Source: a virus (Duplodnaviria > Caudoviricetes). From it: DNA of 46,839 bases. The stretch is from positions 1-46,839 of the IMG/VR virus record IMGVR_UViG_3300035049_000443, one strand, 5' to 3'. Shown here in pieces: positions 317 through 34,905 of this stretch (positions are counted from its first letter, which is position 1; each line of letters opens with the position of its first letter). The position numbers and the translations under genes are program-made. Under the pieces are notes generated by a model that did no database searches, was not told where the DNA came from, and saw only the letters and a list, made by a program, of their open reading frames with translations.

Positions 317-3300
317 TTAATCTCCCATATTTGTTCTTTGAAAAAAGTTTTCCAACATCAAATCTCTTTGACGCTTTACCTGAGCGATCCTCTTCTGAAT
401 ATTTGGTGTTTGCGGCATGTCTTTAAGCTTATTAATTAATGCTTTATTCCTATTTAAGCTGCCTTGCATGCTATCTACCATCTTCATCTGGCGAAACTGG
501 TCAATGTTGGATCGCAGAAATTCACGTTTGTCGCCGGCTTTGTCAAACTGATTCTTGAATTTGTTTGTTTCTTTTTTGAGTTTATTAAACTCTTGTTCAG
601 CTAAAGATAATTTTTTTTCACTTCCTCTGCCGTAATGCCAATAATATAATTTTCCAACAACTGGTATTGATTCAACAGATCTAACACCTTCAGAAACATC
701 ACCAAAAACATCCCTGGTTAAGGAATCAACAAATTTAAATGGCGGCAAAATCTGCCCAAACAGCGCAGATCCAGCGCCATCCTTTCTTATTTGAGTTTGC
801 AAATATCTTGAAGCCCCACCCAGGGTAAGTAAGTTCTCAATTACGTGATCCTCAAACTTACTTTCCTTGTCCATAATTAAATCTTTCAGTGCATCCGCGC
901 CAGCATTTGCCAGTGTAAGAACAGAAGCGAGACTGATTAAGTTTCGCATGCCTGACATAACAACTTGAGGATCTTTCGATCTTAGCTGTTGATAAACCTC
1001 TCGTCTAAAGACATCAATTTGTTTCAGTGTATATGTCTTAAGCATATAAAAGATTCTGCCATTACCGGAATTCAGATATTTCTCCGGCATTTCGCTTAGC
1101 GCTACTGGTTGAAAATCTAACAATCTGTTATAAACCAAGAGCTTCACATTCTCACTCGGGTTGTTTGCCAACAAGTCTTGAACAACACTATTGGTATCTT
1201 TACCAAAGATGTGCCTGATTTCTTTTTTTAGTGCCTCAGGATTGTTATTTGCCTTAGCCTTATAGTTTTCAAAAGCTGTGTTGATCAACGTCTCTTTGCC
1301 GATAGAATCTATGCGTTCTAAGCCAACTTTTTTGAAAACCCAAGATACTGCATTACTCATAGTATCTGCATCAGCAAACTCTTGTGCAATCCTTTCAATA
1401 CCAAGATCTTCCTTAGTTATACCTGACTCATTAAAAACTGCTTTAATCAGATTTTTTGTTGTCCGAGCAATCCCAGTCGGTGTCAGTCCTCCAACATAAT
1501 ATGCCCAGGCAAGGTCACCAATCTGGGTCAGCGCTGATATTGGACTGCCCATCGTATCAATATAAGAGAAGTTTTTATATTTGTTTACAATCCCATGTGT
1601 TCCTTGCTCATGAAATCTGGCATTAAGAATCTCTTTGACTGTTGTTTCATGGTCTTCTGTAATAATACCTTTTTCCATCAGTTCGACAATGTAAGTATCA
1701 ATGTTTTCTGAAAAATCTCTGTCGTTGATTTTATACTTTTCAATGACTGCCTGATGAAGTTTGATTTCATCTTGAAGTTCGTTAATCTTATTCTGAATGT
1801 CAGTTGTATCCTGACCTTCGCTAGTCATTAATGCTTCCATTTCTTGTAAACTAACCAGCCTGGTGTTGATTGCTCTAACTTTTGTCTTTGCCCTACCAAT
1901 GTTTTTTGGAACTCGACCAAAGAATCTTCTGGCTTCGATTTTTTTATTCATAGAATAAATGTATTGCATCAGCGCTGCACCGGAATCCATATAATATGGA
2001 GCAAATTCTTCTGGAATAATATCAAATACCCGACCTTGGATGTTACCAGGACCACCAGTTCCGCCATAATTAGAAAGAATAATATTCCCAATAATGTCGG
2101 CCTTGAGATCTTTGTCCATGTTTTTTACAGAAATTCCAAGCTTCTTAGCCTTGGCTTTTAAAGCATCTGTAAACTCTGGCCGACGAGAAATTTCCTTCGT
2201 TACTTGAAGAAAACCTTCTGTGTCTTTTAAAATCCTGGGCCAGTAATTATCCACATAACCAACATCATAACCTACATCTATAGCAGCTTTACGGATGTTG
2301 TCTAAAACCTGGCGAAGTTGATTATAGTTTTCTTTAATACCATATTTGGCTGCCAGAGTATTTATTCTATTAATATCTCCGTTCTTTGTTGCCCAGTCCC
2401 AGGCACTTTGATCAGCGGAAGACATCTTATCAACTGCTCGCATAATAGGTAATGCAACCTGAAGTTGTTGAGATATTTGAGTTGTTGTATCAAAGTCCAG
2501 TTTACGAAGTTTCGCTGATAAGAGAGGGCTAATGTTTTTGAGTCTTGTGGATATTGGGCCTGCAATTTTATCAAGAAATAACTTAGCATCAGCTTTAGTC
2601 ATTCGAGATACCTGACGAACCTTATCCCAAATATTCTTCTTATGTGCATGAATGCGATCATATTCTTCTTGCGGAATGTCTCGGGTTGGTATATTAGGAT
2701 CAGAGATATTAGTTTCTGCAACTTGAAACTGAGGAAACCCTTCTCGAAGGGCTTTTGAACGCATCTTGGGCGTGATTGGCAAGGTCCAAGCAGACATGGT
2801 AATTGGTTCTTGATTAAAAGTTCCGTCAACATCATCAGCAAGTTGTTTTGCTCTTTCTTTTGTTGTTGCTCTGGTAACAAAATTACCGTTTGCATCCCGA
2901 ACAATAAAAGGAGCATTTGAATCAGGTATTTGTGTTTCAAGTTCTGTCTGACCAACTTTGGCACTGCCCCAACTTTTTTTGTTGAAGAACTTGTTGACTT
3001 CTGCCGGAAGGATCTTATCATAAAACCCAGCCATGCCTGTATCAGATACAGTTATATCATCTCCTTCAAATGTACCAGATTGCTGTGGACTTTCAATGAT
3101 CTGATCTCCCATTGATTTTCCAATGGCATCGCTGATGGAATTTTCACGCTCGATTGTATTCACAACCTGCTGGCCGTTCTTATACCCAACCAGCTGAATA
3201 CTATCTTGGGTTTTATTCCATTCAATTTTATCCACAGCTGTACGTAATGCTTGTTTATATCGCTCAACCTGAATCTCTCCTGGAGTCCAAGCGATTTGGT

Positions 3301-6300
3301 CATAGCCATTCTCAGCTGCATATCGGACCATCTTTTTCATGGCCAGCATTGCCCAGTTTTTAGATCCTTTGAACGGCGCATTAGGAACAGTACTGCTATT
3401 ATTACGCTCTTTCTTTGCAAAAGCTAAGGATTCATCAATAATGTTTTGAGGTACTTTTAAATACTCTAAAACAAGAGGATCACCGAGAATATCATTAGCT
3501 GTAATATTAACAGTAGAAGTTTCTGAATCATTCAAAAAGTTTTGTTCAAAATATGGCTTTATTTTGTTTACAATAGCTGCCTTTTCGTCAGCTAAATTTT
3601 TAGTATATCCTTTCTTCCTACCCTCTTGATGCCAGTCACTCTGAACCTCTTCCAAAAAGAGTACCTTCTCTCCGTTAGGTCCAGTGCGATCGTTCATTCG
3701 GACGTGGACAAGAATATTTGGTTCATCATAATGAGGTCCTTTATAATCCTGACCTCTGGTATCTTGATTACCTGCTTCTGCATGAGCTTCTGCAATAAGT
3801 CTTTTTTGATAATCATTTAATTCTGACCAAGGAACATCTATAGCTCCAGGATAATCATTTGCATAACCACCAGAAGTATAATACTCCTCAACTGTTTTTG
3901 CTCCTTGGGCAGGCAACGTCAACAGAACTTCTTTATAATTAGTTCCGCCTGGTTCTTGGTAAGAGGAGAACTTAGTTTGATCCTCAAGAGATCTTTCAAG
4001 ATCTGCACGCTGATTTGAAATTCGTGTTAACTCAGCTTGACGGTCAGCTGGACTTAACATCATTGCATCACCCGTATTTTGACGAAGCTCTTCTTCTTGC
4101 TGATAAAGATAATTTATTTGAGCTATAATTTTATCATCATTTGATGCTGTTGCTTCTTTTACAACTTCCTCAATCCTTATCTGATTAGCATCCAAGTAAT
4201 CCAACACATCTTTCTTGGTAACAGTCTTCTTTCCTTCAAGCCAATTCATCAGGCCGGACCATTCCAATTCGTCCTGCTTAAATTCGCCCTTATTAGCCCA
4301 GGCTTGAACCTGTTTCTTAACTGATTCTCCCGTACCTTTTGACATCTTTTGATCTATCGTATTCCTCAATTGGGAATAAAAGGTATTCGCGGATTGTTCC
4401 ATCTGTGGAACAGTTACCTGATAAGTCTGATCACCAACTTTGCGTTCATAAATCCTGCCAGTTTCAACCTCTCTGGCAAGACCTCCAACAGTCTGTCGAC
4501 CCAAGTTCAGTAGTTTATTAAAGAAATCCAACACACGCTGAATAAGTGTTCCAAGCGGCTTGTTGCGATATTCAGCTCTGTTCAGCATAACCTGTGCGAA
4601 GGTGTTTGCTCTATTTTCACGCATAGCCTGGACTGGATCAGTATTAGTACTAAGAGCAAATGTCAGCTTGCCAGCTTTTCGAAGTCTGTTAAACTCCCGA
4701 TTCAGCGCTGCATCATCATCCTGGGTAATCAATCCCATGTTATCTAAAACATGCTTGTTTTCATGCCACAGAGTTGCATTATCTGCAAAGTCTTTATCAA
4801 GCAAAATGTTGTTATCAATAGTAACTCCCAGGATCTTGCCATCTTTGTTAGACATCTCGCCAGTGTTCATAGCAACTTCAATAAAGCCATCACCAACACC
4901 TGTAATCTTTTGAATGGTAACACCACGCCCGTTTTTAAAACGAACCGAGAAAGAACCATCTTCAGACTGGAAAACTTGCTGACCTGGATAGGTTGCCTGA
5001 ACATCAGATAAAGTAATCCCCTGGCCTGGAGTTCTATCTTCGCGGATTTCAAACTGAGAATTTGAACCATCCTTTAATTTCTGATTCTCAACTATTAGGC
5101 GCTGAATCTGATTCCTGATTGCAGTCTTTTCTGGTCCTTTCGGCATTGTTACTGTCTGCATCATGAGACGTTCAATCTCAGTTTCGTTTGCAGCAATTTG
5201 TGCACTAACCCCAGGCGTAGCATCCTTTACTTGCTGTTCACCAGTTGAACGACCTGGCGTAGTTTTAGCTGATTTTGCTAACGGTTTCTTTGTTCGCTTA
5301 CTATCATTCAGCCATGATTTAAACTCAGTTTGTGTTAATTCAGTAATATTTCCTAAGCCTTGCCAACCATCTTCATAATTAGACAGATACAAAGCTGTAG
5401 CTTCCTGAGCATTCTCTGCACCAAGAATAACTTTATGCTCATCAAACTTACCTGTCTTCGGATCAATCTGATCAACAACAAAAACTTTAGGACTTGTAAC
5501 AGTATCAGGCTTCACAAACACATCTACTTGATCACCATCTTTGCCTTCAGATCTTTGAAAGTATCCATAATGACTTCCCATTTCAGAAGACCATTCATTA
5601 CCTTCAGGATCGGTACCAGATCTGGTTGAGCCTGCCGGATTTTCAATAGAAATCTTAAGCCCGTCAATTTCCATCTTAGCTTTCTTATAATTACCAGCAG
5701 CTTTCTGTTCATCAGAAGGTTCCGCATTGATTTCTGAATCAACAACAGCTTCTTCCGTTTTCAGATTAACTACAGCTAAAGCATTTTTAAGCTGCTTCTG
5801 CTCATCAAGCAGACTAAGAATTTGACGATTAATTTCAGTTTGTTCCGCCTTAGAATTAACAGCCTTCAACTGGTTTGTTAATTGACGAACTTGATTTTGA
5901 TTTTCAATCAGCGCTGTCTGATTAGATTCAAGAGCTTCTCGTTCTGTAGGTGGAATCTCCTGATTGGCTTGCTTAAACATTGTGTTTAAAGCAGCGCGGT
6001 CTGCAATGTTATCTTGAATGAGTTGCTGCCGGAATGTAGCTGGATCAACATTATTGTTTGCTGCTTCAATTTCCATTGTCAACGGATTCCGAAGCATTTC
6101 ATCTCTCTGCCGAATAGAAGTAGCCAACGGCTGAAGATGTTGATAGTTCGTACCAATCCTCGGTACTGGCATATATGGGTCGTAGCCTTCAACAGCTTCA
6201 GGAGAAATATCTTGCGGGCGTGGAAATATTTTCCCACCAAGCCGCTGGGTTATTTTTGCAAATGGATCAAACTGCCTGGGATCAGCTTCTCCATAATCGA

Positions 6301-8224
6301 TTGGAATAATCTGATCAGGAGCCGGACCTTCCAGAATGGGAATTTCAGCTTTTTGCTGTTCAGCAATTTCAATAAATCCAGGCAAGTGGTTTTCAATTCG
6401 ATTCGCGAATCGATCCAGAGCTGCTTCAAGTTCAATCTCACGCAAAGATTTCCGAGGCTGATTTTGATTCATAATCTCACGTTGCCGTTTGATTAATGCC
6501 AGCGCAGATTGTTCTCGTTTAATAATAGTTTCCTGCTCTTCTGGGCTGAGATCAGCAAAATCATTTGCAACAACTTCAAATGGACCATCATCAAAATAAG
6601 CATCAGAATCTATCAAGCGCTGATTTTGACTAAGTAATGTTGAAACAATTTCAGTAGTATTCGGTGTAGATAAAGTGTTACCAAAAGCAGCCAGCAATAT
6701 AAAAAAGTTTTCCTGAACTTCAATTGGAAACTCAGCCAACAGTTCTGGATTATTAACATATCTTTCAGAAGTACCTACAAAGTCTTCTTTCAGAGCTGTT
6801 TCTAAGATATTATTATACTTACGAACCTTAAGTTCATTTTGAAACTTTGCTTCTTCTGCTTGCCAGTAAGCTTCATCTTCTTTTTGTTTTGCTTCATATT
6901 CAGCGCGAGCTTGATCATTTAGAATTCGTGTATCAGCATCAGACAACTTCTTCTGAATTTGTTGTTTTTGATTATTTTCTATAGCAAGATCAAGATCAGC
7001 TTTTAATTGTTGTTTTCTTTCCAGTCTTTGCTGCTTAATCATATCTTGTTTCTGCTGAAGGTCGATAAAATCCTTCTCAGAAAAGAACTTTCCAGCTGGT
7101 TGCTTTTTCGAGTCTTTAGTCTTACCATCTTTTTTATCTACAGCTGTTTCAGCTTGTATAACATCTGGAGTAGAAAAGATTCCAAAGCCTCCGCCCATTG
7201 CAGCGCCCGCCAGCATTCCAAGTGCAGCCGCCTCACCGACACCCTCACCAAGTGGTTTGTCAGTAGCTGCATTCATCCAAACCTGTTCTTGGGCAGACTG
7301 CGGCAGTTCTTCAAAAATACCTTCAGTGATACCACCAGAAATTATGCGACCTACAACTCCTTTGTGATTCTTAACAGATGACTTAGCAACCTCATTTACA
7401 GCCTTTCCAGTTTTGGCCCCTGGAGAAAGTTTTCCTCCAGCCAGCCATGTGTCAATATCACCAATTCCAAGCTTCTTCGCAAGTCTAGCACCCGCGATAC
7501 CAAAAGCTCCAGTACCAATTCCAGACCCAACAGACTGGGCAATTTGTTTCCCGGTTAATAGACCATCTTCATTTTGCTGCCTTACCTCTTCCGCCATACT
7601 TCCAGCCTGGACTGAACCTTCACCAGCAGCGCCAGCAATCAAGTAGCGAGACTGCCCAGCTGCCTGCATCGCCTTAGGTGCGATTCTTCCACCTGCTGCC
7701 AACAATCCCCTGCCAAGGAAACCACCAGCTACCATACTCGGAGTAGATTCCAATACCGAATGAACTATAGTGCTGGGATTTTGTATGGCCGTACCAAGTG
7801 TACTAAGAAAACCTTTAGCTTCAGAAACCTTTCTGTTGGCTGCTTGCTGAGCAGGAGAATAATGACTTGCCAGACGTTCATCCAGCTCGCCTGGCTCATA
7901 ACCAGTTACGTCTTCAATAAACTTGCCAGCATGTCCGCCAGTTGGAAGATTCGCCAGACCGATCATTGCATCAACTGCTTGAACTCCGCCTCGGGCAAGA
8001 CTCACACCAGCGTCAGTTGCAATATTGGCCAGCGTCCTCTCAGGCGGAACAGCATTATCTTCAGCCATGTTTCCTAAAGTTCGCTGTTTTCCAGATAATG
8101 AAACATTCAAACCTGGAGTAGATTCAGCCAATCGGCGATATTGTGGATTTATCTGAAGAAGCAAATTATGCTTTGCTTCAAGATCTTCTCTACTCCAAGA
8201 GCTGTATGGGTTATTTTCAGGCAT
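317..8224 (-). CDS. Giant polyvalent internal virion/ejection protein (2635 aa) with InPase-like, HExxH peptidase-like and EEVQSDWHQ domains
   Basis: Gly/Ala-rich N-terminus; HYGYFQRSEGKDGDQVDVF...FDEHKVILG pyrophosphatase-like motifs; LWHENKH; GGTNYKEVLL...EEVQSDWHQ...APFK block; distal position in the structural operon. Confidence 0.8.
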   Translation of the reverse strand: MPENNPYSSWSREDLEAKHNLLLQINPQYRRLAESTPGLNVSLSGKQRTLGNMAEDNAVPPERTLANIATDAGVSLARGGVQAVDAMIGLANLPTGGHAGKFIEDVTGYEPGELDERLASHYSPAQQAANRKVSEAKGFLSTLGTAIQNPSTIVHSVLESTPSMVAGGFLGRGLLAAGGRIAPKAMQAAGQSRYLIAGAAGEGSVQAGSMAEEVRQQNEDGLLTGKQIAQSVGSGIGTGAFGIAGARLAKKLGIGDIDTWLAGGKLSPGAKTGKAVNEVAKSSVKNHKGVVGRIISGGITEGIFEELPQSAQEQVWMNAATDKPLGEGVGEAAALGMLAGAAMGGGFGIFSTPDVIQAETAVDKKDGKTKDSKKQPAGKFFSEKDFIDLQQKQDMIKQQRLERKQQLKADLDLAIENNQKQQIQKKLSDADTRILNDQARAEYEAKQKEDEAYWQAEEAKFQNELKVRKYNNILETALKEDFVGTSERYVNNPELLAEFPIEVQENFFILLAAFGNTLSTPNTTEIVSTLLSQNQRLIDSDAYFDDGPFEVVANDFADLSPEEQETIIKREQSALALIKRQREIMNQNQPRKSLREIELEAALDRFANRIENHLPGFIEIAEQQKAEIPILEGPAPDQIIPIDYGEADPRQFDPFAKITQRLGGKIFPRPQDISPEAVEGYDPYMPVPRIGTNYQHLQPLATSIRQRDEMLRNPLTMEIEAANNNVDPATFRQQLIQDNIADRAALNTMFKQANQEIPPTEREALESNQTALIENQNQVRQLTNQLKAVNSKAEQTEINRQILSLLDEQKQLKNALAVVNLKTEEAVVDSEINAEPSDEQKAAGNYKKAKMEIDGLKISIENPAGSTRSGTDPEGNEWSSEMGSHYGYFQRSEGKDGDQVDVFVKPDTVTSPKVFVVDQIDPKTGKFDEHKVILGAENAQEATALYLSNYEDGWQGLGNITELTQTEFKSWLNDSKRTKKPLAKSAKTTPGRSTGEQQVKDATPGVSAQIAANETEIERLMMQTVTMPKGPEKTAIRNQIQRLIVENQKLKDGSNSQFEIREDRTPGQGITLSDVQATYPGQQVFQSEDGSFSVRFKNGRGVTIQKITGVGDGFIEVAMNTGEMSNKDGKILGVTIDNNILLDKDFADNATLWHENKHVLDNMGLITQDDDAALNREFNRLRKAGKLTFALSTNTDPVQAMRENRANTFAQVMLNRAEYRNKPLGTLIQRVLDFFNKLLNLGRQTVGGLAREVETGRIYERKVGDQTYQVTVPQMEQSANTFYSQLRNTIDQKMSKGTGESVKKQVQAWANKGEFKQDELEWSGLMNWLEGKKTVTKKDVLDYLDANQIRIEEVVKEATASNDDKIIAQINYLYQQEEELRQNTGDAMMLSPADRQAELTRISNQRADLERSLEDQTKFSSYQEPGGTNYKEVLLTLPAQGAKTVEEYYTSGGYANDYPGAIDVPWSELNDYQKRLIAEAHAEAGNQDTRGQDYKGPHYDEPNILVHVRMNDRTGPNGEKVLFLEEVQSDWHQEGRKKGYTKNLADEKAAIVNKIKPYFEQNFLNDSETSTVNITANDILGDPLVLEYLKVPQNIIDESLAFAKKERNNSSTVPNAPFKGSKNWAMLAMKKMVRYAAENGYDQIAWTPGEIQVERYKQALRTAVDKIEWNKTQDSIQLVGYKNGQQVVNTIERENSISDAIGKSMGDQIIESPQQSGTFEGDDITVSDTGMAGFYDKILPAEVNKFFNKKSWGSAKVGQTELETQIPDSNAPFIVRDANGNFVTRATTKERAKQLADDVDGTFNQEPITMSAWTLPITPKMRSKALREGFPQFQVAETNISDPNIPTRDIPQEEYDRIHAHKKNIWDKVRQVSRMTKADAKLFLDKIAGPISTRLKNISPLLSAKLRKLDFDTTTQISQQLQVALPIMRAVDKMSSADQSAWDWATKNGDINRINTLAAKYGIKENYNQLRQVLDNIRKAAIDVGYDVGYVDNYWPRILKDTEGFLQVTKEISRRPEFTDALKAKAKKLGISVKNMDKDLKADIIGNIILSNYGGTGGPGNIQGRVFDIIPEEFAPYYMDSGAALMQYIYSMNKKIEARRFFGRVPKNIGRAKTKVRAINTRLVSLQEMEALMTSEGQDTTDIQNKINELQDEIKLHQAVIEKYKINDRDFSENIDTYIVELMEKGIITEDHETTVKEILNARFHEQGTHGIVNKYKNFSYIDTMGSPISALTQIGDLAWAYYVGGLTPTGIARTTKNLIKAVFNESGITKEDLGIERIAQEFADADTMSNAVSWVFKKVGLERIDSIGKETLINTAFENYKAKANNNPEALKKEIRHIFGKDTNSVVQDLLANNPSENVKLLVYNRLLDFQPVALSEMPEKYLNSGNGRIFYMLKTYTLKQIDVFRREVYQQLRSKDPQVVMSGMRNLISLASVLTLANAGADALKDLIMDKESKFEDHVIENLLTLGGASRYLQTQIRKDGAGSALFGQILPPFKFVDSLTRDVFGDVSEGVRSVESIPVVGKLYYWHYGRGSEKKLSLAEQEFNKLKKETNKFKNQFDKAGDKREFLRSNIDQFRQMKMVDSMQGSLNRNKALINKLKDMPQTPNIQKRIAQVKRQRDLMLENFFQRTNMGD

Positions 8225-28248: not shown

Positions 28249-28899
28249 TTATTGTTTTTTCGTAATACTTTGTTTTAATTTTTTCTGGTATTGTTTAAAA
28301 GACATTTTATGCTTATTTCCTGAAAGAAAATTTTTTACTTGGTGTTCACGTAATGAACGAAAACTTTTTCTTTTTTGAACAACTGTTTGTACATAAATAT
28401 ATGCAGGACTATTTAACTCATAAGAAGCATCATCAATACACTGCTCAGCAGCTAATCTATGACAAACAGCCTCAGTAAAAGAATCAAAACTACCAAGATA
28501 AAAATTTTTATTTTTATATCCAATCGATGCACACCAACAAGAATCTAAATAAACTCCAGGAATTAAAAAACAAGCTTTTCGATTAATACGATTCCTTTGA
28601 TTTTGACTTGCAGTAACCTCTTTTAAATTTTCTATCCGATTATCACACTTACACTGATTTTTATGGTCTATCTGTTTTGGCCAATAACCTTTTTGATGAA
28701 GCCAAATAATTGTATGCGCTGTATAACTTTTGCCCTTAACACAGACAGTTAAATATCCATCATGATTTAAATTAAATTGAGGTCCTTTTCTTGCACGATA
28801 GTGGTTTTCTTTTCTAATTAAAAGTCCTGAAGTTTGATCATAAAGAAATAGTTCTTGAACTTGTGCCTGTGTTGGTTTAGCTAACTGATTCTTTTTCAT
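28249..28899 (-). CDS. Free-standing HNH homing endonuclease with AP2-like DNA-binding domain
   Basis: IDHKNQCKCDNRIENLKEVT.SQNQRN HNH motif; GVY...W.ASI...YLGSFDSFTEA AP2-like; visibly AT-rich; ATG 28899 with SD GGAG. Confidence 0.9.
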   Translation of the reverse strand: MKKNQLAKPTQAQVQELFLYDQTSGLLIRKENHYRARKGPQFNLNHDGYLTVCVKGKSYTAHTIIWLHQKGYWPKQIDHKNQCKCDNRIENLKEVTASQNQRNRINRKACFLIPGVYLDSCWCASIGYKNKNFYLGSFDSFTEAVCHRLAAEQCIDDASYELNSPAYIYVQTVVQKRKSFRSLREHQVKNFLSGNKHKMSFKQYQKKLKQSITKKQ

Positions 28900-28939
28900 A
28901 AAATTCTCCAAAGAATAATCTTAAATTAAAGTTTCTATT

Positions 28940-29481: not shown

Positions 29482-29618
29482 GTACAGTTTGGCACGTCCG
29501 GCAGGGAATCGCCTGACAGAGGTCTTTGACAATTTGTGAGCTGGCAGGATAAAGGGATTCCTGCTACAACAACCGGCCCGGATACCGGGCCATTAACTCA
29601 ATTTAAAGGAGTATTATC

Positions 29619-30094: not shown

Positions 30095-30214
30095 CACCAG
30101 GAATAGCATGCCTCACCAGGAATAGCATGCCTCACCAGGAATAGCATGCCTCACCAGGAATAGCATGCCTCACCAGGAATAGCATGCCTCACCAGGAATA
30201 GCATGCCTCACCAG
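30095..30214. repeat. Tandem repeat, 6 perfect copies of 19-bp CACCAGGAATAGCATGCCT plus 6 bp
   Basis: Direct reading; no spacers. Confidence 0.97.
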
Positions 30215-32338: not shown

Positions 32339-32400
32339 CAAATCCAGGAAACACAGCTACCAGGTTGTGCTCCAAAACTCAAACAAAAGGAGTAAACAGT

Positions 32401-32619: not shown

Positions 32620-32683
32620 CCAGCCAAAAGGCCCTGCCCGAAAAGCAGGGCTTACAACTTTAACCAAACAAAAGGAGTTAAGC

Positions 32684-33954: not shown

Positions 33955-33979
33955 TCCCAAATTTAAGGAGACTTCCATC

Positions 33980-34174
33980 ATGACAACCAAAGCCAATTCT
34001 ATGACAAACGCACATTATGCCAAAACCACATCTTTTTGCAAAGCCTGTCAGCAATACATGGAAACCAGTCAGCCAGGACTTGAACTTGACAAGATCGCAA
34101 CCAGAAGACAGGCCAGCAAGTACAGACGAGGCACAGGTGTTGTTTACAAAACCATTAATAACCTGCTCCAATAG
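33980..34174 (+). CDS. Small basic protein, 64 aa
   Basis: SD AAGGAG before ATG 33980; F..AC...TRRQASKYRRG.G motif. Confidence 0.8.
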   Translation: MTTKANSMTNAHYAKTTSFCKACQQYMETSQPGLELDKIATRRQASKYRRGTGVVYKTINNLLQ

Positions 34175-34236
34175 CCGCACTGACGAGCTGTATTGCAGCG
34201 AAACCAGCCAAACCTGCAATCTTGGCTGGTCTGCGG
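34169..34236 (+). ncRNA. Type I hammerhead ribozyme
   Basis: Stem I CCGCA/UGCGG, core CUGACGA, stem II GCUG/CAGC, GAAA, stem III CCAGCCAA/UUGGCUGG, GUC cleavage triplet (C34231); 5' CAAUA complementary to loop II UAUUG. Confidence 0.92.
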
Positions 34237-34264
34237 AAATTAACTCAAACAAAAGGAGAGTATC

Positions 34265-34471
34265 ATGAAACAATCAGACAGTTTTCACAATTCTGACAAC
34301 TATCAAACTTTTGACAATGAACAACATCTGCGCCGCCTCGCAAGGAAACGCATTGCCAAATCCGTGCGATGCATCCCAGTTCCTGAAACACAAGACTGGA
34401 TGTTTCTTACCGACCTGGATGAAGCAATCGATCAGTTGACCTGCCAGCTGGAGGTGCAATTATGCCATTAG
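34265..34471 (+). CDS. Hypothetical protein, 68 aa
   Basis: SD AAAGGAG downstream of the ribozyme. Confidence 0.7.
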   Translation: MKQSDSFHNSDNYQTFDNEQHLRRLARKRIAKSVRCIPVPETQDWMFLTDLDEAIDQLTCQLEVQLCH

Positions 34472-34905
34472 ATGCCACATGCAATTCGTGTAACAAACAA
34501 TATTCATATCCAGCCCTGCAGGCAGACAAACAAACTGGTTTGTGTCCAGCCTGCCAGCGCAAACATGAAATCAAGCAACTGGATGCAGAAATTGCAGCCC
34601 TACAGCCCAGACTGGAAGCAATAACTCCGGAATTAATCAAACTGAACAAAAGGCGCAAAGCTCTGGCAATCGCCCACGAGAAGGCACTCTCAGCCTGGGA
34701 AAAAGTAGCCAAAGTCCACTCAGCGCTGGATCGAAAGATTGCCCTCATGATGCATGAAAGAGACATCCTGGCTGAGGTCAAGGAAGTTAAGACCAGTAAG
34801 CCTGGCTTAACTCCAGCTCAGAAGGCCAAAAAGGCCCTGGATAGCCTGCCACCAGAAGTAAGAGCAGCCATCCTGAAGCAATTCAATCAAACTGAAGAGG
34901 ATTAA
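34462..34905 (+). CDS. Zn-finger + coiled-coil protein, 147 aa
   Basis: CNSC...CPAC, coiled coil, C-terminal LPPEVR motif; SD GGAGG. Confidence 0.8.
   Translation: MPLDATCNSCNKQYSYPALQADKQTGLCPACQRKHEIKQLDAEIAALQPRLEAITPELIKLNKRRKALAIAHEKALSAWEKVAKVHSALDRKIALMMHERDILAEVKEVKTSKPGLTPAQKAKKALDSLPPEVRAAILKQFNQTEED

What the first reader, a model, noticed from the sequence alone, without database searches (positions are those of the whole stretch)
34169..34236. Complete hammerhead ribozyme whose pseudoknot overlaps the upstream stop codon
Seen: all core nucleotides (CUGACGA, GAAA, GUC) and three intact stems, with predicted cleavage after C34231, ~20 nt before the next SD. The 5' flank CAAUA (34169-73), which is the last codon and stop of ORF 33980-34174, is exactly complementary to loop II UAUUG. 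Loop III CUGCAAU (34214-20) can alternatively pair with AUUGCAG (34192-98) and would break stem II. Known: type I hammerheads use loop II tertiary contacts for fast cleavage and occur in phage intergenic regions. Inference: cleavage may be switched by ribosomes terminating on the upstream ORF, making it a translation-sensing self-cleaving mRNA element.
Basis: partly seen in the sequence, partly recalled or inferred. Interest (0 to 1): 0.85.

Follow-up and report, generated by a model that had tools for sequence, protein, structure and literature searches.

The report
Phage hammerhead ribozyme abutting stop codon
A complete hammerhead self-cleaving RNA motif starts right at a gene's stop codon in a phage's small-gene region and likely cuts the message between two genes; most comparable phage hammerheads sit on a stop codon the same way, so this is an ordinary member of a known kind rather than a demonstrated translation switch.

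Summary
The motif is real: a canonical type I hammerhead at 34175-34236 in a tailed-phage contig, the only one in the window (0 equally good hits in 300 shuffles). A related phage keeps it, with a compensatory stem I change and an inserted stem III pair. All coordinates are correct.

The special features do not single it out. The stop codon is the class consensus (N-A-G before stem I). The upstream coding frame ends at or inside the ribozyme in 132 of 147 other phage type I hammerheads. The 5-bp pseudoknot is not enriched in the class and is weaker in the ortholog (4 pairs, two G-U). The loop III pairing register is not kept there.

Best reading: an mRNA-processing ribozyme packed against the upstream gene, of the kind described in prophages in 2011. 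One residue remains: in both orthologs the ORF end is predicted to trap stem II in the nascent RNA (base rate 29 of 195), so translation might help folding.

This scan has noted stop-abutting phage hammerheads before on other DNA (21 findings matched my word search; 8 were shown). Nothing was tested at the bench.

The parts
33966..33971 (+). Shine-Dalgarno-like AAGGAG of the upstream ORF
   Evidence: sequence
33980..34174 (+). Upstream 64-aa ORF of unknown function; its UAG stop (34172-74) ends one base before stem I
   Evidence: ORF; 72% identical ortholog in L001, partial relatives L002-L004; no PHROG or Pfam family
34169..34173 (+). CAAUA, 5' strand of the possible pseudoknot with loop II; A34173 is the class-conserved A2.7. 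Bases 34170-72 can alternatively extend stem I with 34239-41, and 34171-75 can pair with 34187-91 as a nascent-RNA trap
34175..34179 (+). Stem I, 5' strand (CCGCA)
   Evidence: compensatory change in L001
34180..34186 (+). Catalytic core CUGACGA (C3-A9)
   Evidence: only N7 differs in L001
34187..34199 (+). Stem II (GCUG/CAGC) with loop II UAUUG (34191-95)
   Evidence: stem identical in L001, one loop change
34200..34203 (+). Core GAAA (G12-A15.1)
34204..34229 (+). Stem III (8 bp) with 10-nt loop III (34212-21), which holds the 7-nt complement (34214-20) to 34192-98
34229..34231 (+). GUC triplet; predicted cleavage 3' of C34231
   Evidence: sequence plus hammerhead consensus; not tested
34232..34236 (+). 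Stem I, 3' strand (UGCGG); would be the 5' end of the downstream fragment
34237..34264 (+). A/C-rich leader with SD AAGGAG (34253-58); the same leader motif precedes other early genes that have no ribozyme
   Evidence: families D2, D3
34265..34471 (+). Downstream 68-aa ORF of unknown function, overlapping the start of a 147-aa ORF (34462-34905)
   Evidence: both have counterparts in the same order in L001 (147-aa ORF 83% identical)

Best explanation
This is a canonical type I hammerhead motif in a phage intergenic region that likely acts as a largely constitutive mRNA-processing site, predicted to cut the small-gene transcript after C34231. Shown: the motif, its conservation with compensatory change in a related phage, and that its stop-abutting layout is the rule for this class. 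Inferred: it cleaves during or soon after transcription. The upstream fragment would keep stems II and III and a 2',3'-cyclic phosphate as a built-in 3' end, so no spacer is needed and the gene's stop is drawn from the ribozyme's own flank. The downstream fragment would start with a 5'-OH 33 nt before its AUG. The tertiary contact likely rests on the class-wide A2.7-U(loop II) pair, with the other four CAAUA/UAUUG pairs an optional local extension. Ribosomes ending at the UAG would open stem I briefly and may tune the rate, but this would be a side effect of packing rather than a selected switch.
For: Single descriptor hit, 0 strict hits in 300 shuffles. Ortholog: 6 substitutions and 2 insertions in 34175-34236, none in an invariant base or breaking a stem. 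206 type I clusters from viral loci; 171 of 198 have an ATG ORF within 70 nt after the cut, median 31 nt, against 33 nt here. Upstream coding frame stops within -15..+11 of the core in 132 of 147. Type I stops lie at a median -2.5 nt from stem I, type III stops at -42 nt from stem III (0 of 12 within 12 nt), and the 50 nt before type III fold more strongly (median -13.2 vs -6.75 kcal/mol), as a 'ribozyme body serves as 3' end' model expects. Different upstream gene in L001. Prophage hammerheads flanking variable small genes cleaved in vitro and in E. coli (PMC3088659).
Against: No cleavage or RNA data for this element. Rfam does not score it. Secondary-structure prediction gives stem II only p~0.26-0.29 here, against a family median of 0.97, so it may be slower than typical members. 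Real coding frames stop at -10..-8 far more often than other frames (56 of 120 vs 6 of 125); that fits packing but would also fit selected ribosome-ribozyme coupling. The end-protection role rests on recalled RNase biology; my one search for it gave no usable paper.
Confidence: 0.7

Rival explanations
1. Translation-assisted folding: in the nascent RNA the last codons of the upstream ORF capture the 5' half of stem II. A ribosome reaching the stop would melt that trap, let stems II and III form ahead of it, and on release let stem I and the pseudoknot dock, so translation would switch cleavage on.
For: For a transcript ending at C17, predicted p(stem II) is 0.00 free and 0.96 with the flank masked in the window, and 0.01 and 1.00 in L001, where a different 7-bp pairing does the trapping. 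The trap hairpin is -9.8 against -5.6 kcal/mol for stem II alone. A 7-bp flank match like L001's occurs in 1 of 198 other clusters. +11 of a ribosome with the stop in the A site is 34179, leaving stem II outside the tunnel.
Against: 29 of 195 other type I clusters show the same predicted trap, so one independent ortholog at a 15% base rate is weak. The two traps are not the same helix. Predictions omit the pseudoknot, tertiary contacts and Mg2+. In yeast, adjacent helices exchanged rapidly and only helices of about 10 bp or more resisted (PMC2817708).
Confidence: 0.12
2. One reading: the 5-bp pseudoknot is required for fast cleavage, and terminating ribosomes break it, so translation of the upstream ORF holds cleavage off.
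For: Perfect 5-bp match, reached by this loop with only 2 of 192 other flanks at this register. Pseudoknots were predicted in about 40% of hammerheads and mattered strongly in those tested (PMC3088659). The ortholog keeps 4 contiguous pairs, one with a change on both sides. The ribosome does cover these bases.
Against: Not enriched across the class (>=4 Watson-Crick pairs 2 of 192, 3.3 expected). The L001 copy of the same gene ends in a similar sequence about 190 nt away from its ribozyme, so part of the match may come with the gene end. The same bases can extend stem I instead, with 3 of 3 pairs in both orthologs. The ribosome covers stem I itself, here and in most of the class. The upstream ORF has protein-level relatives and is replaced by another gene in L001.
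Confidence: 0.08
3. Attenuated or decaying ribozyme: competing folds (5' trap, loop III pairing) make it slow, so most transcripts stay intact and it is a weak or vestigial processing site.
For: Window and L001 both fall among the 8% of 194 clusters with p(stem II) at or near 0.3 or lower (0.29 and 0.32). Three near-isoenergetic folds lie within about 0.3 kcal/mol. It lacks the U1.7/loop-II-A pair seen in 58 of 194 clusters (that contact is described in PMC11875169).
Against: Core and stems are fully conserved in L001 while the flank and the upstream gene differ. A third relative also carries the motif. The G-last/A1.7 combination seen here occurs in 15 of 194 clusters.
Confidence: 0.07
4. Loop III is a dedicated anti-ribozyme strand that pairs with loop II and stem II to hold the ribozyme off.
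For: 7 Watson-Crick pairs; 0.3% of random 10-mers do as well, and none of 33 other clusters with a loop III of 7 nt or more reaches 6 pairs. L001 loop III has a 6-bp match to the same hairpin. Predicted p~0.3 in the full-length RNA.
Against: The register differs in L001 and the two loop III substitutions break the window's pairing. The predicted fold needs stem III to open; it drops to 0.0 once stem III can form, at a transcript end of 34230. No trigger is apparent.
Confidence: 0.03

Closest known systems
Hammerhead ribozymes flanking genes in prophage/phage polycistronic transcripts (Perreault et al. 2011, PMC3088659)
   Same: Canonical core, intergenic position among small hypothetical phage genes, variable flanking genes, possible pseudoknot between loop II and the flank, proposed processing into shorter mRNAs.
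   Different: Single copy in this contig rather than a tandem cluster. The paper's main text has no occurrence of 'stop codon', 'ribosome' or 'translation'; its supplements were not read. No activity data here.
Type I hammerhead families in Rfam (RF00163 Hammerhead_1, RF02275 HH9, RF03152 RAGATH-1)
   Same: Type I topology (stem I open) and invariant core.
   Different: No match at E<=1 for the window or the ortholog locus L082; relatives give only sub-threshold scores. Stem III is long with a 10-nt loop.
Hammerheads with a U1.7 / loop II A Hoogsteen contact (Schistosoma, sTRSV; as described in PMC11875169)
   Same: A stem I flank-loop II contact seven positions from the core; 58 of 194 phage clusters have U1.7 with a loop II ending in A.
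   Different: This element has A1.7 and a loop II ending in G; the conserved pair available to it is A2.7 with the first U of loop II.
glmS ribozyme-riboswitch (as reviewed in PMC6765202)
   Same: Self-cleavage inside a bacterial mRNA with a possible effect on expression.
   Different: glmS is ligand-gated and tied to one gene. Here no ligand or fixed partner gene is seen and gating is unproven.

Membership tests
Hammerhead ribozyme | Invariant core CUGANGA, GAAA, UH | tested here: met
   34180-86, 34200-03, 34230-31; kept in L001
Hammerhead ribozyme | Three helices around the core with zero-length junction spacers | tested here: met
   5/4/8 bp; all cells paired in both orthologs, one compensatory change
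Hammerhead ribozyme | Self-cleavage 3' of H17 | not testable with these tools
   No RNA holder listed; needs an assay
Type I hammerhead | Stem I open, stems II and III closed by loops | tested here: met
Rfam hammerhead families (RF00163, RF02275, RF03152) | Score at or above the gathering threshold | tested here: not met
   No match at E<=1; relatives are also below threshold, so the models miss much of this phage class
Pseudoknotted hammerheads (Perreault 2011) | [quoted passage not shown] | tested here: met
   5 Watson-Crick pairs possible in the window; 4 pairs with two G-U in L001
Pseudoknotted hammerheads (Perreault 2011) | Pseudoknot conserved by covariation or needed for rate | tested here: inconclusive
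   One ortholog only; not enriched in 192 other clusters; rival distal stem I pairing equally kept; rate not testable
Phage intergenic processing hammerheads | Phage context, between co-oriented small genes, cut shortly before an SD/AUG | tested here: met
   Terminase, portal and major head hits; cut 33 nt before AUG, class median 31
Phage intergenic processing hammerheads | Several copies flanking genes (common, not universal) | tested here: not met
   One copy in the window
Translation-gated attenuator (leader-peptide type; features recalled) | Fixed upstream peptide with a stalling signal and a conserved alternative fold | tested here: not met
   Upstream gene differs in L001; alternative helices differ between orthologs
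Translation-gated attenuator (leader-peptide type; features recalled) | Output changes with upstream translation | not testable with these tools
   Needs a coupled transcription-translation or in vivo assay

The most novel reading that the evidence does not exclude
Phage type I hammerheads are built to be read by the terminating ribosome. In this lineage the last codons of the upstream gene trap stem II in the nascent RNA, and only a ribosome arriving at the stop frees it, so the transcript is cut only once the upstream gene has been translated: a natural translation-gated ribozyme, and a class-wide reason for the stop-codon overlap.
Probability: 0.13. Interest if true: 0.72.

Novelty: new member of a known kind. 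Interest (0 to 1): 0.28.

Why it matters
As a single element it adds one more phage intergenic hammerhead to a kind described in 2011. The biological role of these ribozymes was still called largely elusive in a 2019 review (PMC6765202). The class-wide result may matter more than this copy: upstream genes end at or inside type I ribozymes in about nine of ten cases but well before type III ones. I did not find this stated in print (searches; supplements not read), though this scan has noted it before. It gives a simple test of whether ribosome traffic tunes natural self-cleavage. If translation gated cleavage here, it would be a new regulatory use of a hammerhead in bacteria.

Tried and rejected
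Rfam scan of the window: no hammerhead hit; 2 chance snoRNA matches elsewhere.

Searches for near-identical copies: 0 in viral contigs for the exact 36-mer and for a CAATA...TATTG pseudoknot pattern; 0 in metagenome contigs. The stem III pattern gave 2 loci, L001's contig and L349, which has no full hammerhead. The 147-aa protein alignment found only L001's contig in viral contigs and nothing in metagenome contigs. A genome-contig scan for UAUNG loops gave 24 loci, 0 full type I and 3 passing as type III. L002's record ends before the ribozyme and has no second copy. So covariation for the pseudoknot rests on one readable ortholog.

Sequencing runs: no RNA holder listed. Contigs from runs X1, X2 and X3 match the stretch letter for letter but may be its source. 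A 263-nt contig in X5 (depth 3.8) matches 34169-34237 with 5 other letters and 2 insertions; the tool did not list those 5 letters, so it cannot test the pseudoknot.

Promoter/terminator scan: nothing clearly above shuffles (22 vs 14.4 +/- 3.8; 17 vs 11.2 +/- 3.5); no terminator-like site near the ribozyme on the + strand. No tRNA genes. No PHROG or Pfam family for the two flanking small ORFs.

Rejected: chance motif; class-wide extended pseudoknot (any-register test 8 vs 6.0 expected); class-wide distal stem I extension (3 of 198 vs 8.3 expected). PMC13481778 (passages) had nothing on stop codons or pseudoknots.

Full report
Context. The window is a whole 46,839-base virus record. It is a tailed phage: terminase large and small subunits, portal and major head protein lie on the minus strand, and a plus-strand block of small, mostly unknown ORFs runs from about 29.6 kb into helicase, thymidylate synthase, exonuclease and Sak4-like genes. 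Calling the small-gene block 'early' is my inference from this layout. The four DNA runs that hold the stretch are labelled oil field metagenome and may be its source. The host is unknown.

Observation. A descriptor scan for all three hammerhead types found 1 hit on both strands; 300 dinucleotide shuffles gave 10 loose hits and 0 with stems of at least 5/4/8 bp. Rfam found nothing here at E<=1, but of 10 related loci scanned, the hammerheads scored only below threshold and the ortholog not at all, so this reflects the models.

Ortholog. The upstream 64-aa ORF found 4 related viral loci. One, L001, carries an orthologous hammerhead. Over 34175-34236 it differs by 6 substitutions and 2 insertions: a G-C to U-A change in stem I, an inserted G-C pair in stem III, N7, one loop II base and two loop III bases. 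With two sequences the shuffle control is not significant (124 of 500), but no change hits an invariant base or breaks a stem. In L001 a different, 49-aa ORF lies between the 64-aa ortholog and the ribozyme, and it too ends in TAG right before stem I. A third relative appears as a 263-nt contig in run X5, where the same ORF runs up to a match over 34169-34237; its 5 differing letters were not listed.

The class. A full hammerhead was found in 96 of 96, 116 of 124 and 114 of 123 loci; 395 motifs collapsed to 245 clusters, 206 type I and 39 type III. The clusters come from shared 10-mers and are not phylogenetically independent. The patterns also bias the set: forces UA at the start of loop II and forces AG before stem I. 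In the 153 type I clusters found without a flank constraint, position 2.7 is A in 141 and 2.6 is G in 131; the triplet 2.8-2.6 is AAG in 57, TAG in 34, CAG in 25 and GAG in 8. A2.7 goes with a U at the start of loop II in 180 of 194 (partly forced by the patterns). So the window's UAG is the class motif N-A-G with N = U. An ATG ORF starts within 70 nt after the cut in 171 of 198 clusters, median 31 nt; here it is 33 nt.

Stop-codon overlap. Where the triplet is TAG, it closes a frame of 40 or more codons in 33 of 56 clusters (window and L001 included), against 10 and 10 for the other frames. With a simple ORF rule, 162 of 192 upstream ORFs end within 15 nt before the core or inside the ribozyme (6 of 198 had no ORF called). 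A stricter rule kept 147 of 198 other clusters with exactly one open frame: 132 stop within -15..+11, and 56 of 120 stop at -10..-8 against 6 of 125 non-coding frames (Fisher P 4e-15). Type III motifs differ: median stop -42 nt, 0 of 12 within 12 nt (only 12 of 39 usable), against -2.5 nt and 90 of 108 for type I. The 50 nt before type III motifs fold more strongly (13 of 38 with z<-2, against 25 of 200). My reading: a type I cut leaves stems II and III on the upstream fragment as a ready-made 3' end, so nothing keeps gene and ribozyme apart, whereas type III needs a separate hairpin. Selected ribosome-ribozyme coupling would give the same type I pattern and is not excluded. The overlap is in either case the rule and not special to this window.

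Pseudoknot. The 5-bp match is uncommon: this loop reaches 5 pairs with 2 of 192 other flanks at this register and with 10 of 192 in any register. But the class shows no enrichment (>=4 pairs 2 of 192, 3.3 expected; 5 pairs 0, 0.9 expected). L001 keeps 4 pairs, two as G-U, one through a change on both sides, and loses the fifth; it also has a perfect complement 7 nt further upstream. The same window bases can instead extend stem I by 3 pairs, also kept in L001 with a two-sided change, though that too is not enriched in the class. The pseudoknot is therefore plausible but unproven. Pseudoknots in all three hammerhead types, in about 40% of examples, are already described (PMC3088659; passages and section 6 read; supplements not read).

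Ribosome geometry. With +11 as the last base in the mRNA tunnel (PMC8861025, passages) and the stop in the A site, +1 is 34169 and +11 is 34179. A terminating ribosome would cover the pseudoknot strand and the whole 5' strand of stem I, and leave stem II free. Any interference is therefore through stem I, as in most of the class.

Competing folds, the evidence against my main reading. Predicted p(stem II) is 0.29 here and 0.32 in L001, against a class median of 0.97. In a transcript ending at the cleavage site, stem II is trapped by the ORF end (p 0.00 here, 0.01 in L001) and freed when the flank is masked (0.96, 1.00); 29 of 195 other clusters behave so. The trapping helices differ between the orthologs. 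The 7-bp loop III match is rare (0.3% of random 10-mers; none of 33 comparable clusters reaches 6 bp), and L001 has a 6-bp match in another register; the pairing needs stem III to open. These predictions omit pseudoknots and Mg2+, and short adjacent helices exchanged quickly in yeast (PMC2817708; abstract and section 11). I read them as a weak hint that translation could help folding, which is the opposite direction to 'ribosome blocks cleavage'.

Mechanism. Shown: motif, conservation, context, class-wide layout. Inferred from established hammerhead chemistry (PMC6765202, passages): cleavage after C34231 giving a 2',3'-cyclic phosphate and a 5'-OH. Inferred: separation of the upstream and downstream messages with different stabilities, the role proposed in PMC3088659 and PMC6765202; protection of 5'-OH ends from RNase E is recalled and comes from no call. 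Untested: any effect of translation.

Prior notes and print. This scan's notes hold 21 findings on phage hammerheads matching my words; of the 8 shown, most describe type I motifs on or next to a stop codon (read after my class test). None matches this sequence or this genome. They are unchecked AI notes and I count them as leads only. I found no paper stating the stop-codon overlap (search listings; 'stop codon' has 0 occurrences in the main text of PMC3088659, PMC6765202 and PMC13481778). The library lacks most subscription journals.

Verdict. A real type I hammerhead, a new member of a known kind. Constitutive processing 0.70, translation-assisted folding 0.12, ribosome-blocked pseudoknot switch 0.08, attenuated or vestigial 0.07, loop III switch 0.03. 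Interest 0.28.

Noticed in passing
window ~30095-30213: Perfect tandem array of a 19-nt unit, about six copies, in the ORF-poor zone near the divergence of the two gene blocks; could be origin iterons or protein-binding sites.
   Followed up: no
window 29595-29611, 32376-32392, 32661-32677, 34242-34258: Shared A/C-rich leader plus SD motif before several small genes; the copy after the hammerhead is identical over 17 nt to the one at 32376. May be a recombining expression cassette.
   Followed up: no
window 317-8224 (-): 2635-aa ORF at the end of the virion gene block with an inorganic pyrophosphatase-like InPase domain (PF18823, residues 839-973, E 5.5e-54).
   Followed up: no
window 28249-28911 (-): HNH endonuclease just upstream of the terminase small subunit.
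   Followed up: no
L015 259-310, ~1201, 1727-1794: Three ribozyme classes within 2.4 kb of one viral contig: twister-P1 (below gathering score), a type I hammerhead and pistol.
   Followed up: no
L010 and L011 (one contig): At least five type I hammerheads punctuating one small-gene array.
   Followed up: partly
194 type I clusters from L005-L348: Position 1.7 covaries with the last base of loop II (U/A1.7 in 104, A/U1.7 in 58, G/A1.7 in 15, G/G1.7 in 6), suggesting a swapped form of the known U1.7-A contact.
   Followed up: partly
type I vs type III clusters: Upstream stops abut type I ribozymes (median -2.5 nt) but lie about 40 nt before type III ones, often with a hairpin between.
   Followed up: yes
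L001 3223-3372: A 49-aa ORF absent from the window sits between the 64-aa ortholog and the ribozyme, showing gene gain or loss right at the ribozyme boundary.
   Followed up: partly
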